From a virus: 42,839 bases of DNA. The translations under genes and the position numbers were made by a program. Below the pieces are notes generated by a model. That model made no database searches, was not told the DNA's origin, and was given only the letters and a program-made list of their open reading frames with translations. The stretch lies in the IMG/VR virus record IMGVR_UViG_3300040758_000113. One strand, written 5' to 3'. Position 1 is the stretch's first letter. Every line of letters starts with the position of its first letter. Below are positions 1-39,564 of this stretch, piece by piece.

Positions 1-548
1 GCCTTGGGAGCCTTCTGCGTAGGCCGGGGATTGGCGGCAATGATCCCCTCCGCTTTGTCAACGGCGAACTGCAATCCCCAATAGGAGAAGCGCTCATCCT
101 GCCAAGCTTTCTTGGTGAGGAGAGAATCCTCATCCTCTTCCCAGTCCGGGGAGTCCTGACCTGACGCTATCTTGGCAACCTTATCCCGGTCGGCAACCAT
201 CCAGTCTTCTTCTCCGGGAAGTTTGTAGCCTTGCAGTCTACGCCAGATGTTGGGAACCCGCTTCTTATTGTATCTCTCCGGGAGGTAGCTCTTGATTCCC
301 TTCCATTTCGGATTCATGAACTGCATCAGGGCAAAGTACATCGCCTTGCCCAGTCCGTATCCCCGATGCCGTGGTTTCACTTCCACCAGTGCAATCCCGA
401 GATAGTCGTTCAGGGGTCCACTGTCGCTCTGTCGTTTGGTAGATAGTTTGCCAACACATTTGTTGTCCTCCGTCCATGCCGTAATATATTTAGCGTCTCC
501 GGGGTCATCTACAACGATACGGTAGCTTCCTATATGGGCTACCACATT
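1..548 (-). CDS. GNAT-family N-acetyltransferase, partial (3' end beyond window); probable GTG start at 548
   Basis: My own minus-strand translation gives ...LGIALVEVKPRHRGYGLGKAMYFAL..., the acetyl-CoA-binding motif A of GNATs (R/Q-x-x-G-x-G/A). The frame stays open to position 1 with no stop. A GTG at 548-546 is preceded by AGGAAG. The ORF is in the same frame as the upstream ORF 558-2126, separated only by the TAG at 558-560. Confidence 0.5.
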
Positions 549-557
549 CTTGTCTTC

Positions 558-2126
558 CTATTGTTCTACGGAGGCAATCTTTCTTGGCTCTGGTAGCACT
601 GTGATATTCTTGGGGGGAACAAGGTGGGTTGAATATGAAAGAACACCAGTTTCTCCCATTCCCAAGGGGTCCTTTGCCAAACGCATCCCCTCAGTCTTGA
701 TGCGAAGAGTAACCAACTCATCATCCTTGCCCCGTATAAACTCGGCGAGAAGGTTTTTCCAATAATCCACTCCCTCAATCGCCGTCAGAAATACTAAACC
801 CCGGTTCTCCTCAAAGGGGAAGTTCGGCTCCTTTTGGGGAACCAGTCCCTCTTGAAGTATCTTAGGAACCCGGCTCTTAAAAGTCACGTGATAGAGAATC
901 TCGGGAATCTCCTCAGCGGTCTTGGGGACCAACGCCGAGCCGGTGCCCTTTCGTTGATACTCCGGGTCGTTAAGGTCGGTGATTACCACTCGCCAATCAT
1001 CTTCTTCTCCGGGGTGGAATTGGTCGCAGGTGATGTCGATGATTTTATCCTGCGTCTCTACCCACCAATGTAGTCCATGCCTTCCTACTTGTAAATACTC
1101 ACCCTTCTCCGGTCCTTCTCCATAATACCCACCCGCCCGATGGGCATCAGGGAAACCATGTTCCCGCAGAAACTTCGCTAACAGGTCCGCCAAACAGAGG
1201 CACTGTTCACGGAAACAGGATTTGTCCTCTAACCACTCATACCAATCCTCTTGTTCCTCTCGGAACTGCCATACGAGCTTGGCAAGTGTATCCTCCTCAG
1301 CGGCCCTTCTCCACCTGATGACCTGAATCTGCTTCTTAATGGCCGCTTTGATATTTTCGGGAAGTGGGTAGTTGCAACCGATTGACCCATCATCTTCTAC
1401 CCAGAATATGGTGATATCTCCACTGGTCTTTCCATGGGAGTCTCCCCATGGGGTATCGCCCCAGCCGATGGCGGGTCCACCACCTTGCGGACCTTCGGGG
1501 GCACGAGGGTCGGTTTTGGTCCAGTCGTATTCACTCTGTTCCCTCTCCAGAATCGGCTGGCTGAATATGTGGCTGTGGTGCCATCCACCCGCCTTGCACT
1601 CCTGATAGTTGTGGGCTTCTTCAATGTGCCCATCCAGCAAGGACACCGCTCCCAAGGAAAACGGCTTGCCATTCCAACGGGCGTTGTCTCTTGTGAGCGC
1701 AGCGGTCTTGGGTCTTGGGATAAGCTCGATATGCTTTACTTCGTTCTCCTCCACTACCCGTACTTCCTGCACCGCAGGAGCCTGCTGTTTCTTACGCACA
1801 GAATCCCGGTCGGTACCCTCCGCCTTACAAATTGGGCAGTGGCGGGACAGACCACCACTGTTCTTGAGTTTGCGCTCGAACTCACGAGTCACTCCACTCC
1901 AAATACGAGCCACGGTAAATTCTACATGTCGCTGATGGGCAACCTCCATAAGTCTGGCCCGTGAAGTCCCATTCATATGTAAAGCAATGCGGGCCTCGGG
2001 GTCTAAAGCAAATCCGCAATAATGGCGAACCCTTGCTTGAGACCCATGAAAAATCCCACCTCCTAAGAAGTGAAGAAGATACACAGAGCCTATTTGATTT
2101 TTATCAGCTTGTATATCAAATGACAA
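558..2126 (-). CDS. Large multidomain (polyvalent-type) protein: N-terminal GIY-YIG-like nuclease domain, C4-type zinc motif, papain-fold Cys-His-Asp module; TTG start as given by the ORF track
   Basis: N-terminus GSVYLLHF...RHYCGFALDPEARIALHMNG fits the GIY...YIG...R...H pattern. It is followed by HCPICK. Residues ~311-368 read CLCLADLL...HGLHWWVETQDKIIDITCDQF, which parallels NCGFIAD...HVWNVSEDGTIIDITHDQF in ORF 2782-6039. GGAGG sits 5 nt upstream of the TTG. Confidence 0.45.
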   Translation of the reverse strand: MSFDIQADKNQIGSVYLLHFLGGGIFHGSQARVRHYCGFALDPEARIALHMNGTSRARLMEVAHQRHVEFTVARIWSGVTREFERKLKNSGGLSRHCPICKAEGTDRDSVRKKQQAPAVQEVRVVEENEVKHIELIPRPKTAALTRDNARWNGKPFSLGAVSLLDGHIEEAHNYQECKAGGWHHSHIFSQPILEREQSEYDWTKTDPRAPEGPQGGGPAIGWGDTPWGDSHGKTSGDITIFWVEDDGSIGCNYPLPENIKAAIKKQIQVIRWRRAAEEDTLAKLVWQFREEQEDWYEWLEDKSCFREQCLCLADLLAKFLREHGFPDAHRAGGYYGEGPEKGEYLQVGRHGLHWWVETQDKIIDITCDQFHPGEEDDWRVVITDLNDPEYQRKGTGSALVPKTAEEIPEILYHVTFKSRVPKILQEGLVPQKEPNFPFEENRGLVFLTAIEGVDYWKNLLAEFIRGKDDELVTLRIKTEGMRLAKDPLGMGETGVLSYSTHLVPPKNITVLPEPRKIASVEQ

Positions 2127-2137
2127 ACTTTCCTCCT

Positions 2138-2752
2138 CTACTTTTTATTAAAACGTAACCACCTAGCCATTGATTCAAAAATTTCGGGATTAGTTTCATT
2201 TTGTTTTATGCAATTAGCTTTGTAGGATATAACAGCGATGTTGCCAACCACATATCCTCCTTTAGGGTCAATCCTATCAAGTGATGGGGATTGACGTTGA
2301 GGCCCCATTCCAGTTTTATTGGACTCTAATTCAATTCCTAAAATTGGGCACTTATTGTCTTTTGGCCACGCTTTCTTAATATCTTCCATGGTGATTCCAA
2401 ACTCTAGTCCTCCCTCTCTTGCTCGTCCTTTAGCTGAATGATACATTTTGTATTCTCGTTGTGTTCTTGCTCGGATAGCCCGTCGTGCATGAGACTGTTC
2501 AATGTGACATTGGTAACATTCTGTATTTCTTACAAACCGTTTTGACGTGTGTCCCTCCGAACAAGGACGAGGGAAAGAATAGAATTTTTCTCCTTGGTTT
2601 TTGGCTGCCTTCCTTACCTCCTCTTCCTCCTTTGAGTGTCCCCGAATTACCTTGATTCCCTTATGGGATTCACTAATTTTTCTTCGGTGGTCACTAGAAA
2701 GCTCTGACCCCTTATTCCAAGGAATGTTACCCTTTTCGTATTTTCTGCCCAT
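2138..2752 (-). CDS. HNH homing endonuclease with NUMOD3-like repeats
   Basis: GNIPWNKG...RRKISESHKG (NUMOD3-like) plus C-terminal CPILGIEL...SLDRIDPKGGYVVGNIAVISYKANCIKQN, a phage HNH_3-type motif. Confidence 0.7.
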   Translation of the reverse strand: MGRKYEKGNIPWNKGSELSSDHRRKISESHKGIKVIRGHSKEEEEVRKAAKNQGEKFYSFPRPCSEGHTSKRFVRNTECYQCHIEQSHARRAIRARTQREYKMYHSAKGRAREGGLEFGITMEDIKKAWPKDNKCPILGIELESNKTGMGPQRQSPSLDRIDPKGGYVVGNIAVISYKANCIKQNETNPEIFESMARWLRFNKK

Positions 2753-2781
2753 CCATATCCTCCTATAGATGGGTTGAAAAG

Positions 2782-5700
2782 TTAACTTTCATTAGAAAAC
2801 CTAGGATTCATTAAAGGACCAAATTGCTCATCCAAGTACCCCTCTTTCTCTGCCTTCTCTTCCTGCTTTTCCCTCAATGTTCCGTTAAGGTCCCAAGATG
2901 GGTCAGGTTCATTCATGCCAAAGCGTACAAGGCCAAGTTCCTCAAGCAAATCCTCATTGAGTTTGCGCCAGACCTTTCCATCCCACATCTCTATCCGACT
3001 GGCGGGGATGGTCTTTTGGGTAAAGAAGGCTTCGGCACCAGCATCACCCGTTCCATATTCATCTTCCTCAAACCCGTAACGTTTGTACTCCTTGATGCGC
3101 AAGACTACGGGAATCATGCCATCAGAAACGGGGCTATCTGAGTTGTGGTAAGCCCACTCCTCCACTCTACTGACCCAGAACCCCACGCCCCGTGGGTCAG
3201 AGAAGAAAATACGCCCCTCAGTGTGCCAACCGTAATTCTCACCGATGACCGGGGGATGACCGGGTTCCAACCCCTGCCAGATGATATCCTCAAGTCGGTT
3301 GGCATAGGTCACATGATAGACATACCCCACCGTGGCGGCTTCCTTGGGGATAACCCACGAGGAAGAAGCGGTTACATTCTTCCAAGCTGCCGGGGGTTGA
3401 TGCCATGAATTTTCACTGGTTCCCTTCCAACCGAGTATCTGCGGGTGTGTTCCCTCCTTTAAGCGTATCTCCTTTTCCTCTTCTCCAAGGGAGGGGTCAA
3501 GGTTCACCCAGACGGTTGCCTCCCAGTCAACATCCTGCTCCTGCACTTGTGCATGAATGATGTATTTCTGATACCCCGGTCCAAAGTTTCCCCAGTGTGC
3601 TTCGGCGGCATTTTCATCCCGTGACCAGAAAACCCCGATACCCCGGCGCTTTAATCCCCTGATGTCTTTGAGGGTAACTACCCGGTAGACATCCAATGGG
3701 AAGGACCACATGGAGTGGTCGCCAAGAACATCATAGTACCGGTTCTCCAAATCTTCATAGGCCCGACGCTCCAGATATTCCTGTTGCTCCTTCTGCTCCA
3801 GAGCATCGAAAGCTTCCGTCTCCGCCCGGTCATAGGGTTCCCACTGGTCCCAACTGGAGCCAAACCCATTGACAATCTTCTCAATCCCGCCTTCTTTCTT
3901 AACGAACTCATCCCACGACGGGAAGTGAGCAACAGGAGAGGCGGTCATCGTAAGCTTGGCCTGCTCCTCCAGAACGTTCATAGGAATAATCGCCTTATTA
4001 CCACCCTCGCATTCCGGTTGGTTAGCGTATCCCTCTAGCCCCTCGCCTTCACTCAAGCTCTCGAAGTCATTCTCCCTATGGGGCGTCTGCTTGTGGGAGT
4101 CTGCTGTTTTTATAGACTTGTCTACTATGTCAATCTTCTCAATTTGGTTGACGCTTATCGGCTGTTTCTGTCTTACCGTTTCCATATATCGAAAGCTGTC
4201 TTTCCATGTTATCCCATAGCGGTCATTAAGCTCATCATACCGCCTGACATACTCATCCGATAGTGAATATCCCTCACCCATATCCCGCCTGCTCATGGTG
4301 AGATAGTTGACTAGCCAAGTGAGATTTTGACTCACCCTTGCCTGTTTCCTGATAGCATCCAACCCCACCTTCTGAGAGGAAGTCTTTTTCAGTTCTTCCA
4401 TATCTTCATCAGGCTGGGACTCCTCGTTCACTACTCCATTACCACAGATGGGACAGGCGTTCGCTTCATCCTCTGGGAGATACTGCCAGCAGTAAGCGTG
4501 GTAGTCATCGTACCCCGGCTGACCGGGCTTGACCACGTTGATATCGGGTGGTCCAAACTGGTCATGGGTGATGTCTATGATGGTTCCGTCTTCCGAGACG
4601 TTCCAAACATGGTCGATTTGCTTGCCGTTGTCTTCCAAGTACAGCCCGGCATAAACATCCCAACCATACTTTTTAGAAGCGGAGTCAGCAATGAATCCGC
4701 AGTTACCCTGACCCCTCACGGCGGTGGTATCCCCCATGCGCAACTCCGTGCGCAGAGCACGAGCCTCATCCAAGACCTCGGGAGTGGGCTGAGTATTCAC
4801 AGCGGATGCCTTACTTTGCTGGTAAGCATCCGACCTGTCTTTGAGGTCTTGAAACCACTTCTCGGTTTTCTTCTGTCGCCGGGACCGAGACCACTCCCTC
4901 ATTTTCTCATAAATCTCCTGCCTCTTGGCACGCTCCTCGGCAACACTTGCCGGGGGCTTTTCATCCCATTGCAAACGGAGGTCTGGCATTTTCATCAATG
5001 CCTCGGCAGCGAGAATCAAACCATGGTTATCCTTGTGGGGGTACTCCCAATGCCTAGAACCAATATTAGGGGCATCAACGAAATCTTGGTCGGTGGTCTG
5101 AGTCAGCCGGTACTCTTCCATGTTCTTGCCGCTCATCCATATTTTCTGTTTGCCAGAAATGCGGATAGACGCCTGCCAACGGGGAGAACCCCAGCTAGTA
5201 CGAGAGACTAAAACAAAGAAGGGACGCTCGGTAAACTGTTTCTCGTAACTCTCATCAGATTTATTTGTGATGAAGTCTTTGCCGTGTTTGGCGTTCCAAC
5301 GGTTGGCTATCTCCTTAAAGACCCCACCATGCCCACCTTCGATTCTCACTATCCTATCGAAGACCTTTCCTCCGGGGTAGGTTGACCACACCTTAAGCAT
5401 CTGTTCGTGGTGTACAAGCTCGTGGGCAATGATACGGCGGAGGGTCTCCTCATCATGACAAATGGCTTTTTGAAGGACGATAGTGGTATTGGGTTCCCCG
5501 TGCCGCCACTCGGTCCGGCCTAGCCACTTGGAGCGGGTATAGTCGGCAATCCTGATTTGTGGCTCCGGGAGGCTGGGGTCCACATCCGGCATGAGGCTGT
5601 GAAGCACATTGATGACCTCTCCGTAGTCCAAAGCCTCATCGGCGGCAATGACTCCCCGCTCCTTCAAAGACTTCCTAAGTTCCCCACCCTCTCCCGTGGT

Positions 5701-6039
5701 GCCGCTGCTAACAATTTGCTCACCGGGAAACTCTGCCTTGAGCTTCTCGTACATGGCGGTCGCCACACCACGGCGACGGTATTCCGGCTGAACATGAACG
5801 TACTTTATCCAAATTTCGTTATCGTACTCCGAAAAGTCCACGTAGCCAATACGTGTTCCCTGTTGGGTCTCCTTGCCGTCTGGACCGGTCGCCCATACCC
5901 CGCCACCCTCCAGCCAAGCTTCTACCCTGCCGGAAAGCTCTCCTCGGTGGGAATCATGGATTTCCAAACGAACTGTCATGGGGGGCGCTTCCCCGGATGC
6001 CCCGGCTGTCGGTTGAAGCAATGGATTGAGTGAACTCAT
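2782..6039 (-). CDS. Very large (1085 aa) polyvalent-type protein: GNAT acetyltransferase + SprT-like zincin (HExxH) + papain-fold Cys/His/Asp module + further uncharacterised C-terminal modules
   Basis: GNAT motif VQPEYRRRGVATAMYEKL (~5740-5820). TLRRIIAHELVHHE HExxH (5410-5424), SprT-like. QGNCGFIADS...DHVWNV...IIDITHDQF (4561-4701) parallels the module in ORF 558-2126. ATG start at 6039. Confidence 0.55.
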   Translation of the reverse strand: MSSLNPLLQPTAGASGEAPPMTVRLEIHDSHRGELSGRVEAWLEGGGVWATGPDGKETQQGTRIGYVDFSEYDNEIWIKYVHVQPEYRRRGVATAMYEKLKAEFPGEQIVSSGTTGEGGELRKSLKERGVIAADEALDYGEVINVLHSLMPDVDPSLPEPQIRIADYTRSKWLGRTEWRHGEPNTTIVLQKAICHDEETLRRIIAHELVHHEQMLKVWSTYPGGKVFDRIVRIEGGHGGVFKEIANRWNAKHGKDFITNKSDESYEKQFTERPFFVLVSRTSWGSPRWQASIRISGKQKIWMSGKNMEEYRLTQTTDQDFVDAPNIGSRHWEYPHKDNHGLILAAEALMKMPDLRLQWDEKPPASVAEERAKRQEIYEKMREWSRSRRQKKTEKWFQDLKDRSDAYQQSKASAVNTQPTPEVLDEARALRTELRMGDTTAVRGQGNCGFIADSASKKYGWDVYAGLYLEDNGKQIDHVWNVSEDGTIIDITHDQFGPPDINVVKPGQPGYDDYHAYCWQYLPEDEANACPICGNGVVNEESQPDEDMEELKKTSSQKVGLDAIRKQARVSQNLTWLVNYLTMSRRDMGEGYSLSDEYVRRYDELNDRYGITWKDSFRYMETVRQKQPISVNQIEKIDIVDKSIKTADSHKQTPHRENDFESLSEGEGLEGYANQPECEGGNKAIIPMNVLEEQAKLTMTASPVAHFPSWDEFVKKEGGIEKIVNGFGSSWDQWEPYDRAETEAFDALEQKEQQEYLERRAYEDLENRYYDVLGDHSMWSFPLDVYRVVTLKDIRGLKRRGIGVFWSRDENAAEAHWGNFGPGYQKYIIHAQVQEQDVDWEATVWVNLDPSLGEEEKEIRLKEGTHPQILGWKGTSENSWHQPPAAWKNVTASSSWVIPKEAATVGYVYHVTYANRLEDIIWQGLEPGHPPVIGENYGWHTEGRIFFSDPRGVGFWVSRVEEWAYHNSDSPVSDGMIPVVLRIKEYKRYGFEEDEYGTGDAGAEAFFTQKTIPASRIEMWDGKVWRKLNEDLLEELGLVRFGMNEPDPSWDLNGTLREKQEEKAEKEGYLDEQFGPLMNPRFSNES

Positions 6040-6117
6040 ATAACCCTTGGTTTTTCAAGTCCGGGGACAAGTTTCCCCCTGATTGAGAAATAGGAAGTCG
6101 GGTTGTTTTCAGTAGGG

Positions 6118-6969
6118 TTAAGTGGTTCTCTCATTTACCTTGAGCATAAGCAAAGGATGATATCCGCAGGTACAAGGTTTGCCACGGTTGATGTTCCAGC
6201 GTTGGCAATGCCCTTTTTTAGTCATATAAGACAGGTGTCCTGGCTTGGACATAGTTTTTTTACCATTCAAACTTATGGTAGCTGCTCGTTTCTTAACCCC
6301 CTCCATCATTTTATATCGAGTTTGGGGGTCTGACCATAGCTTCTTAACTAACTCAGATTGTCTGGTGCGAAGCTCTAAATCAGACCACCCCGCATTTACT
6401 GCTTTGGCTTGTTTAGTACGAGCCTCATAAGTAGAAAATCTTTTCCTATTAGCCTTAGATTTTCTATCTCTTACTTCTGGGCTCCTCAGTTTTTTAACAA
6501 CTTTGTCACGGAACTCCGAATCTTGCCATAATTTTTTGATAGACTCGGAATGTTTGGCTTGAGTTTCAGGGTCTTTCCATGCTTCTTTCAACGCCATAGT
6601 TAATCTGGTAATAAATGTGGGGTCGGCTAGTCGATTTTTGGCAATTTCCTTTGCTTCTTCTGAGGTAAATCCCTCTCCTCCTCGACGGATGTTGTAACCA
6701 TATTCAGGGTCTTGGGCTTTTAGAAAAATAATAAAATCCTTTTCGACTTGGTCTAACTCTTCTTTTGTTTGGATATCCGAACGGAGAGCATGAATGCTGA
6801 AACTACTTCTTCCATATTTTCTTATAGCGGCGTAAAGATGGGAGGACCCGCCTAAACCATGTTCCGCTTCCCAAAATTTTTTGTGAAGATATTTGCGGAG
6901 GTCTCTACCCTTATGCTGACCGATGTAGTATTTTCCTGTGATGTGATTAGCGATAAGGTATATGAACAT
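6118..6969 (-). CDS. GIY-YIG homing endonuclease (I-TevI/Seg-like) with NUMOD-type repeats
   Basis: N-terminus MFIYLIANHITGKYYIGQHKG is the GIY-YIG signature. Basic repeats follow in the C-terminal half. GGGGG RBS upstream of the ATG at 6969. Confidence 0.75.
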   Translation of the reverse strand: MFIYLIANHITGKYYIGQHKGRDLRKYLHKKFWEAEHGLGGSSHLYAAIRKYGRSSFSIHALRSDIQTKEELDQVEKDFIIFLKAQDPEYGYNIRRGGEGFTSEEAKEIAKNRLADPTFITRLTMALKEAWKDPETQAKHSESIKKLWQDSEFRDKVVKKLRSPEVRDRKSKANRKRFSTYEARTKQAKAVNAGWSDLELRTRQSELVKKLWSDPQTRYKMMEGVKKRAATISLNGKKTMSKPGHLSYMTKKGHCQRWNINRGKPCTCGYHPLLMLKVNERTT

Positions 6970-18285: not shown

Positions 18286-18867
18286 CTACGCAGTTGCGTC
18301 GGCGGAGGGGGTGGACTCCTCCACAGCGGGACCCGTAGGACCGGTCACAGCATCCGGGAAGGCGGTACCTTGAGGCACGACATCAGCCGGATTTTCATCG
18401 GCGGTGAACGTAGAAGGCCCCGCAGGCCCGCTAGGAGGCGCTCCCGGCGCAGGGGCGGGCGGTGGGGCGGGCTGAGCCTGCATCTTGGCGAGTTCGGCCT
18501 CTGTAATGGCATCGTAGGAGAAAACGTAGGACTCGGCTTTCTCAGCGTCGGTGATTCCTTCCGGCAGTTCCCACTTGATGTTGATTGCCATGCCCTTGAA
18601 CTGTTCAAGTTCCACCTTGCTGAGTTCCACCCTGCCCCCGGCGTGCTTGAGGAGTGTGGCGGCAAGAGCGGATAGCCTCTTGGCGGAGCCTTGTGCTCCC
18701 TGATAGGCGGTCGCCAGTTTGCCAACGATTTCATCCGGGTTGTTGTAAATCTTCTGGAGTTCTTCTTCGAGTTGTCTGCAGTACTTTTGCAGGGAACTGA
18801 GGAACTGCTTTTTGACGGTGGACTTTTTCAATACAAAGGGCTTGGGCTGTAAGGATGATTTACTCAC
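18286..18867 (-). CDS. Hypothetical protein with Pro/Ala-rich C-terminal low-complexity tail
   Basis: 193-aa ORF. ...QPAPPPAPAPGAPPSGPAGP... Confidence 0.4.
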   Translation of the reverse strand: MSKSSLQPKPFVLKKSTVKKQFLSSLQKYCRQLEEELQKIYNNPDEIVGKLATAYQGAQGSAKRLSALAATLLKHAGGRVELSKVELEQFKGMAINIKWELPEGITDAEKAESYVFSYDAITEAELAKMQAQPAPPPAPAPGAPPSGPAGPSTFTADENPADVVPQGTAFPDAVTGPTGPAVEESTPSADATA

Positions 18868-18906
18868 ACTTCCTCCTGTTGGGATTTTTCTGTAAAGAAA
18901 TCGAGA

Positions 18907-19287
18907 CTACATCAGTTCTTTGGCCTTCATGAACCGGACGGCTTCGATTGCCTTCTTCACCATGATTTCGTAATCCTCGGGGCCGCAGTCGAACAGAGCG
19001 GAACCCCAAAGCTCGGCGAAAGCCGCCTCGGCGGTCCGATACTTGTAATTGGGGTTGGGGGTAACCAGCCGGGTCTGAGGATTGGTGATGAACTTGTCCT
19101 CGGTATTGACCGGTTTCCCGTCCGAGGGTGCACCCACTCCTTCGATTCTGGCATCAAACATGGGGTCCCAGTAAATCTCAATGTCGGGGGATTCCAAGCT
19201 CACGTAGATGCCGGGAGCGGTCTTCTTGTAGCTCGCCCCAGCCGCCTTGAAGTACCGACCAACCGCAATGCTATCAAATTTGCTCAT
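18907..19287 (-). CDS. Hypothetical protein
   Basis: 126-aa ORF. The upstream region contains gtatttatacagtGGAGG before the ATG. Confidence 0.4.
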   Translation of the reverse strand: MSKFDSIAVGRYFKAAGASYKKTAPGIYVSLESPDIEIYWDPMFDARIEGVGAPSDGKPVNTEDKFITNPQTRLVTPNPNYKYRTAEAAFAELWGSALFDCGPEDYEIMVKKAIEAVRFMKAKELM

Positions 19288-36694: not shown

Positions 36695-37351
36695 TTAAGG
36701 TCTAATCCACTCAAATTTGAGTATATTCAACAGTCGAATTTGATGGGGGGTGGGGTCAATATCATCTTCGCATAAAAAGGTCCCCCAGCATGTACCATCG
36801 CATAACTTCCAAAGGTCTTGGCGAGAACCCCGATGAAACATCAGGGCCAGCCTAAAGGAGATGTGACGTGAAGCATCCTCCTTACGATAACTGAAATCTG
36901 CAAGAAAATACTTCCCCTTTGGGACATCCTCCGTAAGGACAGTGTATGCATTCAAACCATCAAGAGAGAAACTAAACTGAAAGAGCGCCGGGGAGTCTTT
37001 CCGTCTGTCAAATATGGAAACTGTGTTGTGTTTGAAGCAAGGGTGACCGTTGTGCATCACCCACGGATTGTCGCTCCGCTTTTCATCTCTAATTTCCACA
37101 TCCCCCGTCACCCACTTACCCTCGGGATGACGTGGTCCTAGATAAACCTGAACATCGCCAAGTCCAACTTCACGGAGTTTTTTTGCCCAGATTTCCCGTT
37201 GGGACAGGAATTCAATTAAGGCAGATTTTCCGGGGTTATCATATGCATCATAATCCTTATCCCGAAAATCAGCGCCCTCAAGTTTTCCCATATCTACCTC
37301 GATTCCGGTTGACAAGACGGGCAGCATAGCTCCGTACCACAGTCCGGGCAT
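36695..37351 (-). CDS. Hypothetical protein
   Basis: 218-aa ORF. No ATPase signature motif seen. Confidence 0.4.
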   Translation of the reverse strand: MPGLWYGAMLPVLSTGIEVDMGKLEGADFRDKDYDAYDNPGKSALIEFLSQREIWAKKLREVGLGDVQVYLGPRHPEGKWVTGDVEIRDEKRSDNPWVMHNGHPCFKHNTVSIFDRRKDSPALFQFSFSLDGLNAYTVLTEDVPKGKYFLADFSYRKEDASRHISFRLALMFHRGSRQDLWKLCDGTCWGTFLCEDDIDPTPHQIRLLNILKFEWIRP

Positions 37352-39564
37352 TTCGGTTTGGATTCCTTGGACAGAAGCAACGTCAAAGAGTTAACCTTGG
37401 CGTTAGCGGCGTCCAGTTCCTCTTCCGTAAACTTAAGCTCACTCTTCTTGCTGGGGAGCTTCAATGCCTCTGCCAACAAGTTGATGTTCTTAAGCGCCGA
37501 GAGGTAGTGAGCAATGACTCCGAGTAGGAAGTTGGCTTCTTGTAGCACACCCTCTAACTTCTCCCCGCACTCCTTGGGGCTTGCTCCCTTTCTTTCGACA
37601 ATTTCCAACAGGGATAGAACCGCCTGCTTGCGTTTGTACCCCTTAGCCACAAGGTCCCACTGGACTATAGTATTGTCAATGCCATGTACCACCTGTCCCG
37701 TGACTTCCCGGCGACGGAGGATTTTTACCGCCTCGGCATACATCCGGGCGAGGCGCTCCTGTTTCTCAATGGGGGATACATCCGGCACAGACAGCTTGAG
37801 GATGAAGGACCGCATCTTCGCTATCCGATTCGTCCTTGTAAGTGTCTCGGTCAGCGAGGCCAACAATGACTCATAGCTGTTGACCTTTGCCTCATAACCA
37901 GACACGGTGTGGGCGGAGTCCTGTGCCGAGGCATTAAACCTCTCAAGTTTACCCCGGCGTTCCTCTGCCTCACGGATTTCTTCGGCGAGCGTTCGGGCTT
38001 CCCCGTTCTTTTCGGTAATGCGCCGGTTGGCTTCCTTCTTCCCTGCATCCAATTTTTCGGTAGAGGCAAAGGCCCCAAGGATGGCATTCAGGTCGTTGGG
38101 CTTCCATGCGTCGGGGTCAATGAGGAATTGTGCCTTGTTCTGTTGAGAAAAGATGGGGTCTATGGTTGTGTCCCCCACTTTGACGGTGCCATACTTGAGC
38201 ACCTTCATGGGTTCGGGGACACTATCGCCGAGAGCCTTATACTCTATCGGCTTACCCTTTTCATCTTCACCAATGGCGTACTTGGTGGAACCCTTGCGGG
38301 TCCGGGTGGCCCTGATGGGGTCGTTGACACCCTCAACCTCAAGAGTCACTTCCATCTTCTCATCCTGTCCATTACGGACAAAATCCTGCGGGAGTTCATT
38401 GCGGAATACCCCCCGCAGGGCACGGAAGATGGAGCTATTATGAGTTATAGTAAAATCACCAAGAAGAAAAAGCCCATCCCCGCTCAACTCAAATCCGAAA
38501 TATTCTCCCCACCCTTTATGCTTTATTTTAAACCCCGTTGTTAAACAAGATTTTTTGGATTGCGATAATGCCTTTTTTCGCTTTATGATAGTAGGAATAC
38601 TAGGCAAATTCCCGAAAATTAAAACCGTATGGTATATCTTATTGTATCGTTTGTTTAACTTAGGAGAAATAGATGCCCTAAACCCGAGAGACCTCGCTAA
38701 AAATGCCACTTGTTTAGCAAGTCGCTCAAACTGCGAACAAAAGGCAAATTGAGACGGTTCTAATCCAGCATCAGAATCTAGCAACCCAGCCAATAGTAAA
38801 AGTCTATCTTCCCTTGAGCCAACCAGATAGCTATGTGGTATGCATTTTCCGTCTGCATCCACCAACTTTAACAACCGGAAACGGTTAAGAAGGGCATTAC
38901 TTCGACTTCCTTTATGTTTAGTAGAAAATCGGTAGGAATCATCATCATTGGGTATAAGATGGAGACCATACTTGGTGGCAAGTTTTCGACAATAGTTTAC
39001 AACCTCAAGGTCGGCGGTTGTTACTTCTAATTTATGTAAATCGGTGGTACCATCGCCAAGCCAATAGCCCACCAAATAAGGTTCAAATTTTTTATCTACC
39101 CGGCACTTAAAATCTATACCTCCCGAACGATGCAAACGGGCATTCCGTTTATAGGTAGCACTTTTGGAAAGAAAGTCCTTAACTGAAATCTCCACCCTGC
39201 ATTGTCTTAACTGTAAGGGACTGAGACGACGTTTTTTTCCATCTAATCGGCAAATCAAGGACAAAATGTGATACTGATTACACCCCCAAGAACCATCGAA
39301 GCCCCCTTTATTGGGCAAAACCTCATACATATCATCAAACCCGTGGGAAATACTAAGAACGGTGCGAGGCGTGCTATCCGGCCCCATAAGAAAGTCACCT
39401 ACACCTATGTTCTTTGCTAATTTATTTGTCCCGTCATACATAAGAACAGGAGTATTTGGAGCAAGACACTTACCCTTATTCGACGGTCCGACAATCAATG
39501 TCAACCCGTCCACAATAAGGGAGAAATCTTTCCATGGTTGAAAATTCTTACCGGATAGTTTCAT
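37294..39564 (-). CDS. SbcC/Rad50-like P-loop ATPase (N-terminal ATPase lobe + coiled coil ending in CxxC...CxxC), interrupted by an intein in the Walker A motif
   Basis: Spliced N-terminus would read MKLSGKNFQPWKDFSLIVDGLTLIVGPSNKGK|SSIFRALRGVF, the canonical Rad50/SbcC start with GxNGxGKSSI. Long coiled-coil. Ends KCPDCGTELCCPSCQ. Confidence 0.65.
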   Translation of the reverse strand: MKLSGKNFQPWKDFSLIVDGLTLIVGPSNKGKCLAPNTPVLMYDGTNKLAKNIGVGDFLMGPDSTPRTVLSISHGFDDMYEVLPNKGGFDGSWGCNQYHILSLICRLDGKKRRLSPLQLRQCRVEISVKDFLSKSATYKRNARLHRSGGIDFKCRVDKKFEPYLVGYWLGDGTTDLHKLEVTTADLEVVNYCRKLATKYGLHLIPNDDDSYRFSTKHKGSRSNALLNRFRLLKLVDADGKCIPHSYLVGSREDRLLLLAGLLDSDAGLEPSQFAFCSQFERLAKQVAFLARSLGFRASISPKLNKRYNKIYHTVLIFGNLPSIPTIIKRKKALSQSKKSCLTTGFKIKHKGWGEYFGFELSGDGLFLLGDFTITHNSSIFRALRGVFRNELPQDFVRNGQDEKMEVTLEVEGVNDPIRATRTRKGSTKYAIGEDEKGKPIEYKALGDSVPEPMKVLKYGTVKVGDTTIDPIFSQQNKAQFLIDPDAWKPNDLNAILGAFASTEKLDAGKKEANRRITEKNGEARTLAEEIREAEERRGKLERFNASAQDSAHTVSGYEAKVNSYESLLASLTETLTRTNRIAKMRSFILKLSVPDVSPIEKQERLARMYAEAVKILRRREVTGQVVHGIDNTIVQWDLVAKGYKRKQAVLSLLEIVERKGASPKECGEKLEGVLQEANFLLGVIAHYLSALKNINLLAEALKLPSKKSELKFTEEELDAANAKVNSLTLLLSKESKPKCPDCGTELCCPSCQPESR
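38437..39468 (-). mobile_element. Intein (344 aa) with LAGLIDADG homing-endonuclease domain, inserted after the Walker-A Lys
   Basis: N-terminal splice junction GK|CLAPNTPVLMYDG (Cys1). LAGLIDADG blocks LVGYWLGDGT and LAGLLDSDAG. C-terminal FTITHN|S (His-Asn plus +1 Ser). Boundaries checked codon by codon: 39468 = Cys1, 38437-38439 = terminal Asn. Confidence 0.7.

What the first reader, a model, noticed from the sequence alone, without database searches (positions are those of the whole stretch)
1..2126. GNAT domain ORF lies in the same frame as the upstream polyvalent-type ORF, separated only by a single TAG
Translating the minus strand in the frame of ORF 558-2126 shows its TAG stop (558-560) followed with no frame change by an open frame running to the window edge. 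That frame encodes a textbook GNAT motif A (LGIALVEVKPRHRGYGLGKAMY). The only candidate start is a GTG 4 codons after the stop. The neighbouring polyvalent ORF (2782-6039) has a GNAT domain genuinely fused to it. So this could be (a) a separate GTG-initiated GNAT gene, (b) stop-codon readthrough or amber suppression producing a C-terminal GNAT fusion, or (c) a recent nonsense split of a fused ancestor.
Basis: partly seen in the sequence, partly recalled or inferred. Interest (0 to 1): 0.55.

Follow-up and report, generated by a model that had tools for sequence, protein, structure and literature searches.

The report
Nonsense-split polyvalent gene in jumbo phage
A single G-to-A change turned a conserved tryptophan codon into a stop and cut one large multi-domain phage "polyvalent" gene into two same-frame genes; this is an ordinary gene split caught early, and nothing found here points to programmed stop-codon readthrough.

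Summary
On the minus strand, the 522-aa ORF (2126..558) ends in TAG (560-558). The same frame then stays open to the window edge and encodes a GNAT domain. The only usable start is GTG at 545-543.

The geometry alone is what chance gives: 8 of 30 neighbouring gene pairs in this phage share a frame across a single stop.

The junction is special because of its relatives. Six related loci (42-94% protein identity) carry TGG (Trp) where this strain has TAG. In five of them the reading frame runs straight through the junction, as ORFs of 388 to more than 2129 aa. That Trp is the first conserved residue of this GNAT subfamily.

So TAG is a derived TGG->TAG nonsense mutation in an ancestrally fused ART-like/GNAT/ParB-like polyvalent gene. 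It is identical in 16 contigs from different assemblies.

Readthrough or recoding finds no support. TAG ends 31% of ORFs, the standard code gives the highest coding density, no tRNA lies in the 61 kb I could see, and the stop is not conserved.

The downstream ORF shows no branch-specific relaxation of selection, so it is probably still made from the GTG, but with a weak ribosome-binding site and without the conserved Trp and Lys. Expression is untested.

A second split of the same ancestral gene, by an HNH endonuclease gene, lies just beyond the window edge.

The parts
558..2126 (-). 522-aa polyvalent-type ORF with a TTG start and AGGAGGA at 2137-2131. It has an N-terminal GIY-YIG-like/Zn-ribbon module, middle modules and a C-terminal ART-fold module. 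It is the upstream fragment of the ancestral fused gene.
   Evidence: Homolog P0002 starts at the same position. Residues 103-522 are 93% identical to residues 270-689 of the 1436-aa ORF of L007.
561..959 (-). ART-superfamily (Tpt1/KptA-like) module with an invariant YH motif. It is the last domain before the stop.
   Evidence: A profile of alignment A3 hits RNA 2'-phosphotransferase chains at E = 1.2e-6 and PARP10/DarT weakly. The single sequence gives only a weak Pfam PTS_2-RNA hit, E = 0.015.
570..581 (-). K-I-A-S inter-module linker motif, ending four codons before the stop.
   Evidence: K[TILV]A[ASG] occurs 23 times in 17 related polyvalent proteins against 3.7 +/- 2.0 in shuffles, and flanks the GNAT module on both sides.
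558..560 (-). TAG stop codon, derived from TGG (Trp). This Trp is the first conserved residue of the GNAT module.
   Evidence: TGG at the homologous codon in L007, L009, L010, L012, L025 and L026. Trp is present in all 12 other rows of alignment A1. TAG is identical in 16 contigs.
554..559 (-). AGGAAG, a weak Shine-Dalgarno-like match that overlaps the stop, 8 nt upstream of the GTG.
   Evidence: Duplex with the anti-SD is -4.2 kcal/mol, rank 27 of 42 called starts. 35% of internal start-like codons do as well.
543..545 (-). GTG, the only possible (re)initiation codon for the downstream ORF, 12 nt after the stop. In relatives it is an internal Val or Ala codon.
   Evidence: GTG in this strain and in L009; GTA in the sister L007; GCC in L025 and L010; GTC in L026 and L012. 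Gene callers use it as the start of a 346-aa product.
162..557 (-). GNAT acetyltransferase module (motif A is PRHRGYGLG), ending at a second K-I-A-S linker.
   Evidence: Pfam Acetyltransf_1 26.9 bits. The family has 182 representatives, both solo and inside polyvalent proteins of up to 6205 aa. In the AF2 model of homolog P0015 the module has pLDDT above 90 and its PDB Foldseek hits with E <= 0.001 are GNAT acetyltransferases.
1..116 (-). Start of the ParB-like module (KKAWQDERF...). It continues beyond the window edge to the DGNHR motif and a truncated cREC_REC remnant; the ORF ends at L001:12622.
   Evidence: Homologs P0013-P0017, P0019 and P0020 start at this module. cREC_REC matches only profile positions 2-37 of 88.

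Best explanation
Shown: in the lineage leading to this strain, one G->A transition changed the Trp codon TGG into TAG. That Trp opens the GNAT module of a single large polyvalent gene (ART-like, then GNAT, then ParB-like, then cREC, then a C-terminal domain). The change lies four codons after a K-I-A-S inter-module linker. The upstream product (522 aa) therefore ends almost exactly at a natural domain border, and the rest of the old gene remains as a same-frame 346-codon ORF.

Inferred: the downstream GNAT/ParB-like protein is still made. Translation would start at the GTG 12 nt after the stop, either by ribosomes that have just terminated at UAG (termination-reinitiation) or by weak direct initiation on AGGAAG. 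The product would lack the conserved Trp-x-x-Lys and the first beta-strand, and would probably be made at a lower level than in the ancestral 1:1 fusion.

The split is one of several ways this modular gene cluster is being cut and rejoined. The others are an HNH endonuclease gene inserted into the cREC domain and swaps of whole modules.
For: Fused relatives:
- L007/L008 (89% nt identity) encode one 1436-aa ORF that reads ...KIASVEQ-W-EDKNVVAH... through the junction.
- L025 has a 2667-aa ORF, L026 a 1631-aa ORF, L009 a 388-aa ORF, and L012 an open frame of more than 2129 aa in which one BLASTP alignment spans the junction (E = 1e-50). All have TGG at this codon.
- L010, a 1991-bp contig, also has TGG at this codon, with the junction internal to the reading frame.

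Polarity: the Trp is present in every other member of alignment A1 and in the closest ~15 family members, including solo proteins where it lies 5-40 residues from the N-terminus. TAG is therefore the derived state.

Not an artefact: the junction is identical in 16 contigs.

Downstream ORF still constrained:
- dN/dS against L007 is 0.055 (GNAT) and 0.037 (ParB-like), against 0.026 upstream.
- With L025 as outgroup, this branch has 40 synonymous and 15 non-synonymous changes downstream. The intact sister branch has 55 and 22 (p = 1.0).
- 6 non-synonymous of 19 changes in the GNAT is far below the neutral expectation of 78% (p = 1.6e-5).
- If the ORF were silent, the TAG would have to be confined to roughly the last 10% of the branch (my estimate from these counts).

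Start codon: GTG is a derived synonymous change relative to the sister's GTA.

Literature:
- GNAT next to ART in one polypeptide is a described polyvalent architecture, and solo versions of such domains are known (PMC5512222).
- Reinitiation falls off with distance but is variable at about +14 nt (PMC10666635).
Against: - No expression data exist.
- The SD is weak (-4.2 kcal/mol; well-supported non-ATG starts in this phage have AGGAGG at -10 to -12).
- The GTG product loses Trp8 and the invariant Lys11 of the family, and the strand that holds the Trp in the AF2 model of P0015 (E130-132).
- The TAG-bearing population is nearly clonal (0-4 SNPs per 4 kb). The mutation could therefore be so recent that an intact ORF says nothing about function.
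- GTG also occurs in L009, so the start codon may be chance.
- A 12-nt gap is longer than the overlaps that couple best (PMC10666635).
Confidence: 0.6

Rival explanations
1. Same nonsense mutation, but the downstream GNAT/ParB-like ORF is no longer translated. It would be a very young pseudogene remnant that has not yet had time to decay.
For: - Weak SD.
- Loss of the conserved Trp and Lys and of the first strand.
- A near-clonal population, compatible with a very recent event.
- The same ancestral gene has a second disruption, with a truncated cREC domain.
- In the GNAT alone, with L010/L009 as outgroups, this branch has 6 missense and 13 synonymous changes against 1 and 17 in L007 (p = 0.09).
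Against: - With the better outgroup L025, the ratio of non-synonymous to synonymous changes downstream equals that of the intact sister branch (15/40 against 22/55, p = 1.0).
- All six missense changes fall at variable columns of the family alignment.
- There are no frameshifts or further stops in 346 codons.
- The allele is fixed in at least 16 assemblies.
Confidence: 0.28
2. Programmed or tRNA-mediated amber readthrough. A suppressor tRNA encoded elsewhere in the ~338-kb genome, or supplied by the host, reads UAG, so that both the 522-aa protein and an 869-aa fusion are made.
For: - The frame is open for 350 codons after the TAG.
- About 277 kb of the genome could not be scanned for tRNAs.
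- A relative (L010) has another in-frame TAG inside the same GNAT module.
Against: - The stop is not conserved: TGG in six relatives.
- TAG terminates 20 of 64 ORFs, with no excess of back-up stops after it.
- Coding density is 0.952 under the standard code and 0.934 with TAG as sense.
- There is no tRNA in the window or its flanks, and no Rfam match in the window.
- The L010 TAG is a singleton CAG->TAG on a 2-kb contig; the two relatives that share that sequence, L025 and L026, have CAG.
- The two TAGs align with different residues (Trp and Gln).
- The RNA fold around the stop is unremarkable (z = -1.44).
Confidence: 0.06
3. Two separate genes are the ancestral state, and the relatives fused them by a TAG->TGG change.
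For: Solo GNATs of this family exist. Polyvalent proteins are thought to grow by accretion of solo domains (PMC5512222).
Against: - It would need the same stop-to-Trp change in at least five separate lineages, at a position where even solo family members carry Trp internally.
- The linker plus VEQ/K-W is conserved down to 42% identity.
- This strain's GTG has no proper SD.
Confidence: 0.03

Closest known systems
[quoted passage not shown]
   Same: - Large mosaic multi-effector ORFs in a phage, with an ART-fold module directly followed by a GNAT.
- ParB-like and other modules, solo and fused versions of the same domains, and rapid module shuffling between close relatives.
   Different: - Here the ART-GNAT pair is cut by a point nonsense mutation at the first conserved residue of the GNAT. 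It shows the reverse direction (fission) of the accretion the paper emphasises.
- The ParB-like module was recognised only by its DGNHR motif and by homologs, not by a Pfam hit. I did not test whether it is the DdrB-like family of that paper.
Translationally coupled gene pairs (termination-reinitiation; Huber et al. 2019 PMC6728339 and 2023 PMC10666635)
   Same: Co-directional cistrons with a short gap, and a start codon within reach of a terminating ribosome.
   Different: The gap is +12 nt rather than the typical -4 or -1 overlap, the SD is weak, and the arrangement arose by accident from an internal Val codon. Coupling is inferred, not measured.
Stop-codon recoding in phages (TAG->Gln, code 15; bioRxiv 10.1101/2021.08.26.457843; PMC9523058), and leaky termination such as the Q-beta A1 readthrough protein (my own knowledge)
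   Same: An in-frame stop followed by a long open frame that encodes a real domain.
   Different: - There is one in-frame TAG, not many.
- TAG is a normal terminator in this genome, an alternative code gives no gain in coding density, no suppressor tRNA was seen, and the stop is absent from all relatives.
Phage genes split by free-standing homing endonuclease genes (for example split nrd or topoisomerase genes in T4-like phages; my own knowledge)
   Same: Just beyond the window edge, an HNH endonuclease gene sits inside the cREC_REC-coding part of the same ancestral gene.
   Different: The TAG split itself involves no inserted DNA. The alignment with L007 is ungapped across it for 1586 nt.

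Membership tests
Polyvalent proteins (PMC5512222) | Several unrelated effector or catalytic domains in one polypeptide | tested here: met
   - Ancestral and relative forms of 1436-2667 aa carry ART-PolyVal, several GNATs and cREC_REC.
- This strain's 522-aa fragment keeps an ART-fold module plus other modules.
- The 346-aa fragment has a GNAT plus a ParB-like module.
Polyvalent proteins (PMC5512222) | Encoded by a phage or a conjugative element | tested here: met
   The contigs are 317-339 kb, and the window and flanks carry DNA polymerase A, RecA-like, primase zinc-ribbon, intein and homing endonuclease genes. Relatives are in IMG/VR.
Polyvalent proteins (PMC5512222) | Mosaic domain architecture that varies between close relatives | tested here: met
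   The N-terminal module is swapped, an extra GNAT is inserted in L007, and other modules differ in L025, L026 and L012.
Polyvalent proteins (PMC5512222) | Packaged in the virion and delivered with the DNA early in infection | not testable with these tools
   Needs virion proteomics.
GNAT acetyltransferase superfamily | Sequence match above the curated threshold, and the acetyl-CoA motif A (R/Q-x-x-G-x-G/A) | tested here: met
   Acetyltransf_1 scores 26.9 bits against a cut-off of 20.7. RHRGYG is present.
GNAT acetyltransferase superfamily | GNAT fold | tested here: met
   In the AF2 model of homolog P0015 the module has pLDDT above 90. The 19 PDB Foldseek hits with E <= 0.001 are GNAT acetyltransferases such as EctA, Naa10 and YhbS; the GNAT toxins TacT and AtaT follow just above that cut-off. 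This was tested on the homolog, not on the truncated GTG product.
Programmed stop-codon readthrough / stop-codon recoding | The in-frame stop is conserved in related genomes | tested here: not met
   TGG in L007, L009, L010, L012, L025 and L026.
Programmed stop-codon readthrough / stop-codon recoding | The recoded stop is avoided as a terminator, and coding density rises under the alternative code | tested here: not met
   TAG ends 20 of 64 ORFs. Coding density is 0.952 under the standard code and 0.934 with TAG as sense.
Programmed stop-codon readthrough / stop-codon recoding | A cognate suppressor tRNA (anticodon CUA) is encoded by the phage | tested here: inconclusive
   No tRNA at all in the window plus both 10-kb flanks (61 kb) or in the loci of relatives. 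No Rfam hit in the window.
Termination-reinitiation coupled gene pair | Stop and start overlap or lie within a few nucleotides, and there is a usable start codon | tested here: inconclusive
   The gap is +12 nt and the start is GTG with a weak SD. The literature shows variable efficiency at +14 nt (PMC10666635).

The most novel reading that the evidence does not exclude
The TAG is a regulated switch. A suppressor tRNA (anticodon CUA) encoded in the unseen ~277 kb of the genome, or a host suppressor, lets the phage make both the 522-aa protein and the full 869-aa ART-GNAT-ParB fusion from one mRNA, perhaps at different times in infection. The second in-frame TAG, in the GNAT of relative L010, would then hint at the same mechanism in the wider group.
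Probability: 0.06. Interest if true: 0.7.

Novelty: new member of a known kind. Interest (0 to 1): 0.3.

Why it matters
It is a clean, polarised snapshot of how phage polyvalent genes come apart. One transition at the first conserved codon of a module, right after a linker, yields two cistrons that roughly match the domain borders. An intact fused sister allele (89% nt identity) is available for comparison.

For annotation, it shows that the 346-aa 'gene' called in at least 16 public contigs has an accidental GTG start and an N-terminally clipped GNAT.

It would matter more if the downstream protein proved functional. That would show that such effector modules tolerate fission, and would fit the solo/fused duality described for polyvalent proteins. 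The enriched K-[TILV]-A-[ASG] junction motif is a testable candidate for a processing site or a recombination joint.

Tried and rejected
- **Phage database:** blastn of bases 1-6100 against INPHARED phages gave no match.
- **First protein search:** a query made of the two ORFs joined by X returned only homologs of the N-terminal module and missed the GNAT relatives. A second search with the 346-aa protein was needed.
- **Stimulatory RNA element at the stop:** the 161-nt fold has z = -1.44, with 20 of 200 shuffles as good. An 8-bp hairpin (543-521) starts one base after the first G of the GTG, but it follows from the coding sequence and is unproven.
- **Promoter and terminator scan of 1-2800:** counts are at shuffle level.
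- **Rfam on the whole window:** nothing.
- **tRNA scans of the window, both flanks and 12 loci of relatives:** none.
- **Alternative genetic codes:** no gain.
- **Relaxed selection downstream of the TAG on this branch:** suggestive with a poorer outgroup (p = 0.09), gone with L025 (p = 1.0).
- **Within-lineage polymorphism:** too low (0-4 SNPs per 4 kb), and biased because the look-up is by exact protein.
- **L010's in-frame TAG as evidence of recoding:** rejected after L025 and L026 showed CAG there.
- **The 9,172-bp contig with frameshifted GNAT fragments (P0171, P0175, P0178):** disregarded, because it has several frameshifts and is probably error-prone.
- **Look-up of P0021:** not on record.
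- **Structure job for the ART-like module (A3):** It was replaced by a profile search of PDB sequences.
- **Walking the rest of the 338-kb contig:** not possible with the remaining look-ups.
Full report
**1. What is in the sequence**

On the minus strand an ORF starts at TTG 2126-2124, with AGGAGGA at 2137-2131, runs for 522 codons and ends in TAG at 560-558. The same frame continues GAA GAC AAG AAT GTG(545-543) and stays open to base 1. The next in-frame start-like codon lies at 386, inside GNAT motif A, so GTG-545 is the only start that keeps the domain.

Pfam places the downstream frame in Acetyltransf_1 (26.9 bits, cut-off 20.7). It also confirms an N-terminal GNAT and an SprT-like hit in the neighbouring 1085-aa ORF.

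**2. Where the window comes from**

The exact 522-aa protein is encoded on 12 contigs, the longest 338,351 bp. That contig matches the window at all but one of the 12,126 overlapping bases.

A gene from the far end of the window maps to positions 2,446-23,210 of the same record, while the near end maps to 300,031-321,599. The window therefore bridges the contig ends. By my arithmetic this implies a circular or terminally redundant genome of about 338.2 kb.

DNA polymerase A, RecA-like, primase zinc-ribbon, intein and homing endonuclease genes, and relatives in IMG/VR, mark it as a jumbo phage. Beyond the window edge the downstream ORF runs to 346 codons: GNAT, a second K-I-A-S linker, a ParB-like module with DGNHR, and a short cREC_REC remnant.

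**3. Is the geometry special?**

No. A greedy ORF call on 61 kb (the window plus both flanks) gave 30 adjacent same-strand pairs separated by 0-150 nt. Eight of them are in the same frame with a single stop between them (3 TAG, 2 TGA, 3 TAA). That is about the one-third expected.

**4. What makes this junction special: the relatives**

| Locus | Relation to this strain | ORF across the junction | Codon at the TAG position |
|---|---|---|---|
| L007 / L008 (two IMG/VR contigs, 316,945 and 237,553 bp, identical here) | 89% nt identity, ungapped over 1586 nt across the junction | 1436 aa, reads ...PEPRKIASVEQ-W-EDKNVVAHVGSYR... | TGG |
| L025 | close relative, 81% nt identity | 2667 aa | TGG |
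| L026 | close relative | 1631 aa | TGG |
| L009 (P0015) | 68% protein identity | 388 aa | TGG |
| L010 | short 1991-bp contig | junction is internal to the frame, but a separate TAG follows 42 codons later | TGG |
| L012 | 42% protein identity | open frame of more than 2129 aa; one BLASTP alignment (E = 1e-50) runs from the ART-like module through the junction into the GNAT | TGG |

An exhaustive search with the GNAT part found 182 representatives. Some are solo proteins of 110-160 aa; others are embedded in proteins of up to 6205 aa. In the closest 15 or so, the module opens with W-N/E-x-K-x-V-V, and the Trp lies 5-40 residues inside even the solo proteins.

In a 13-sequence alignment the Trp is present in every row except this strain, and the Lys three residues later is invariant. 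The stop is therefore a derived TGG->TAG transition in an ancestrally continuous gene. It is not an assembly error, because 16 contigs from separate JGI, ENA and Logan assemblies have the identical junction.

**5. Anatomy of the break**

A profile of the module before the stop matches Tpt1/KptA RNA 2'-phosphotransferases at E = 1.2e-6, and PARP10 and DarT weakly. It is therefore an ART-superfamily domain. ART followed by GNAT in one polypeptide is a described polyvalent-protein architecture (PMC5512222).

The break lies four codons after a K-I-A-S motif. K-[TILV]-A-[ASG] recurs at module borders: 23 times in 17 related proteins, against 3.7 +/- 2.0 in shuffles. It flanks the GNAT module on both sides. 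The 522-aa product thus ends almost at a natural border.

The AF2 model of homolog P0015 gives the GNAT module pLDDT above 90. It places the Trp in a short first strand (E130-132) and the GTG-equivalent Val inside the second strand. Its PDB Foldseek hits with E <= 0.001 are all GNAT acetyltransferases. A GTG-initiated product would lack that first strand, the Trp and the invariant Lys.

**6. Is the downstream ORF still used?**

For:
- dN/dS against L007 is 0.055 (GNAT) and 0.037 (ParB-like), against 0.026 upstream and 0.02-0.09 in other genes.
- With L025 as outgroup, this branch has 40 synonymous and 6 non-synonymous changes upstream, and 40 and 15 downstream. The intact sister branch has 36 and 3, and 55 and 22. 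The two downstream ratios do not differ (p = 1.0).
- If the ORF had drifted neutrally, these counts would confine the TAG to roughly the last tenth of the branch (my estimate).
- The codon used as the start is GTG here but GTA in the sister, GCC in L025 and L010, and GTC in L026 and L012. It is thus a derived synonymous change that creates the only possible start. L009 also has GTG, so chance is not excluded.

Against:
- The SD-like AGGAAG gives only -4.2 kcal/mol, rank 27 of 42, and a third of internal start-like codons do as well. The phage's other well-supported non-ATG starts have AGGAGG.
- The gap of 12 nt is in the range where reinitiation is variable (PMC10666635).
- The TAG lineage is nearly clonal, so the mutation may simply be very young.

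I rate 'still translated from the GTG' at about 0.6 and 'silent young remnant' at about 0.3.

**7. Readthrough or recoding**

- No tRNA lies in the window, in either 10-kb flank or in 12 loci of relatives, and the window has no Rfam match.
- TAG ends 20 of 64 ORFs, and coding density is highest under the standard code (0.952, against 0.934 with TAG as sense).
- Distances to the next in-frame stop after TAG-terminated genes are not short.
- The RNA around the stop folds no better than shuffles.
- The stop is absent from every relative.
- One oddity was followed up. The 1991-bp contig L010 has an in-frame TAG in a variable loop of the same GNAT. The two relatives that share that sequence, L025 and L026, have CAG there, so it is a singleton CAG->TAG change or an error.

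Readthrough remains possible only through a suppressor in the roughly 277 kb that I could not reach. I give it about 0.06.

**8. Wider context**

The same ancestral gene is cut a second time just beyond the window edge. The 346-aa ORF ends after profile positions 2-37 of 88 of a cREC_REC domain that is complete in L007 (66.7 bits). A 260-aa HNH endonuclease gene follows, and the next ORF (237 aa) resumes the homology.

Two more endonuclease genes sit between the polyvalent ORFs inside the window (2138-2752, endonuclease VII/HNH type; 6118-6969, GIY-YIG). N-terminal modules are swapped between this strain and L007, and L007 carries an extra GNAT. The TAG split is thus one event in a locus that is being cut and rejoined constantly.

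**9. Verdict**

This is a new example of known kinds of things (polyvalent proteins, and gene fission by a nonsense mutation). It is useful for annotation and as a natural experiment, but not surprising to a specialist.

Noticed in passing
L001:12609-13610 (just beyond the window's left edge; the window ends at L001:12126): A 260-aa HNH endonuclease gene (Pfam HNH 23.3 bits; phrog_1271 2e-22) sits inside the cREC_REC-coding part of the same ancestral polyvalent gene. The 346-aa ORF keeps only profile positions 2-37 of 88, and the following 237-aa ORF resumes the homology to L007. This is a second, independent fission of the gene.
   Followed up: partly
window 570-581 and 162-173 (minus strand), and related proteins: The motif K-[TILV]-A-[ASG] recurs at module borders of these polyvalent proteins (23 observed against 3.7 +/- 2.0 in shuffles). 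It flanks the GNAT module on both sides. It may be a protease processing site or a recombination joint. A search of PMC5512222 for 'linker' found no occurrence.
   Followed up: partly
window 2138-2752 (-) and 6118-6969 (-): Free-standing endonuclease genes lie between the polyvalent ORFs. The 204-aa protein matches endonuclease/endonuclease VII/HNH PHROGs (1e-30). The 283-aa protein matches GIY-YIG homing endonuclease PHROGs (5e-21). Its Pfam 'GerD' hit is probably spurious.
   Followed up: partly
L010:1069-1071: A 1991-bp metagenome contig of a relative has an in-frame TAG in a variable loop of the same GNAT module. L025 and L026 have CAG there. It is a singleton nonsense variant or a sequencing error.
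   Followed up: yes
window 18286-19287 (-): Another same-frame pair is separated by a single TAG: a 126-aa ORF, then a 193-aa ORF with a GTG start. This one has a strong AGGAGGA SD (-10.3 kcal/mol), so it looks like two ordinary genes. Neither has a Pfam hit.
   Followed up: partly
window 37294-39564 (-): The 756-aa ORF carries intein-type hits (Hom_end_hint, faint LAGLIDADG_3) in the precomputed Pfam list. It is an intein-containing gene in the replication module, next to RecA-like and primase genes.
   Followed up: no
whole window, relative to ena:ERZ27250039:k141_400892: The two ends of the window map to positions ~311,600 and ~13,200 of the same 338,351-bp contig. The window therefore spans the contig ends, which implies a circular or terminally redundant genome of about 338.2 kb.
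   Followed up: partly
window 1760-2126 (-) compared with L007:3919-4785: The N-terminal ~120 aa of the 522-aa ORF is a GIY-YIG-like module plus a CxxC zinc ribbon. It is shared with P0002-P0012 and named GIY-YIG only by one source, for P0008. In L007 a different N-terminal block containing another GNAT takes its place. Homology to L007 starts at codon 123.
   Followed up: partly
window 521-543 (minus strand: GGUAGCCCAUAUAGGAAGCUACC): An 8-bp hairpin begins one base after the first G of the GTG start codon. It could mask the start unless an upstream ribosome opens it. The region as a whole folds no better than shuffles.
   Followed up: partly
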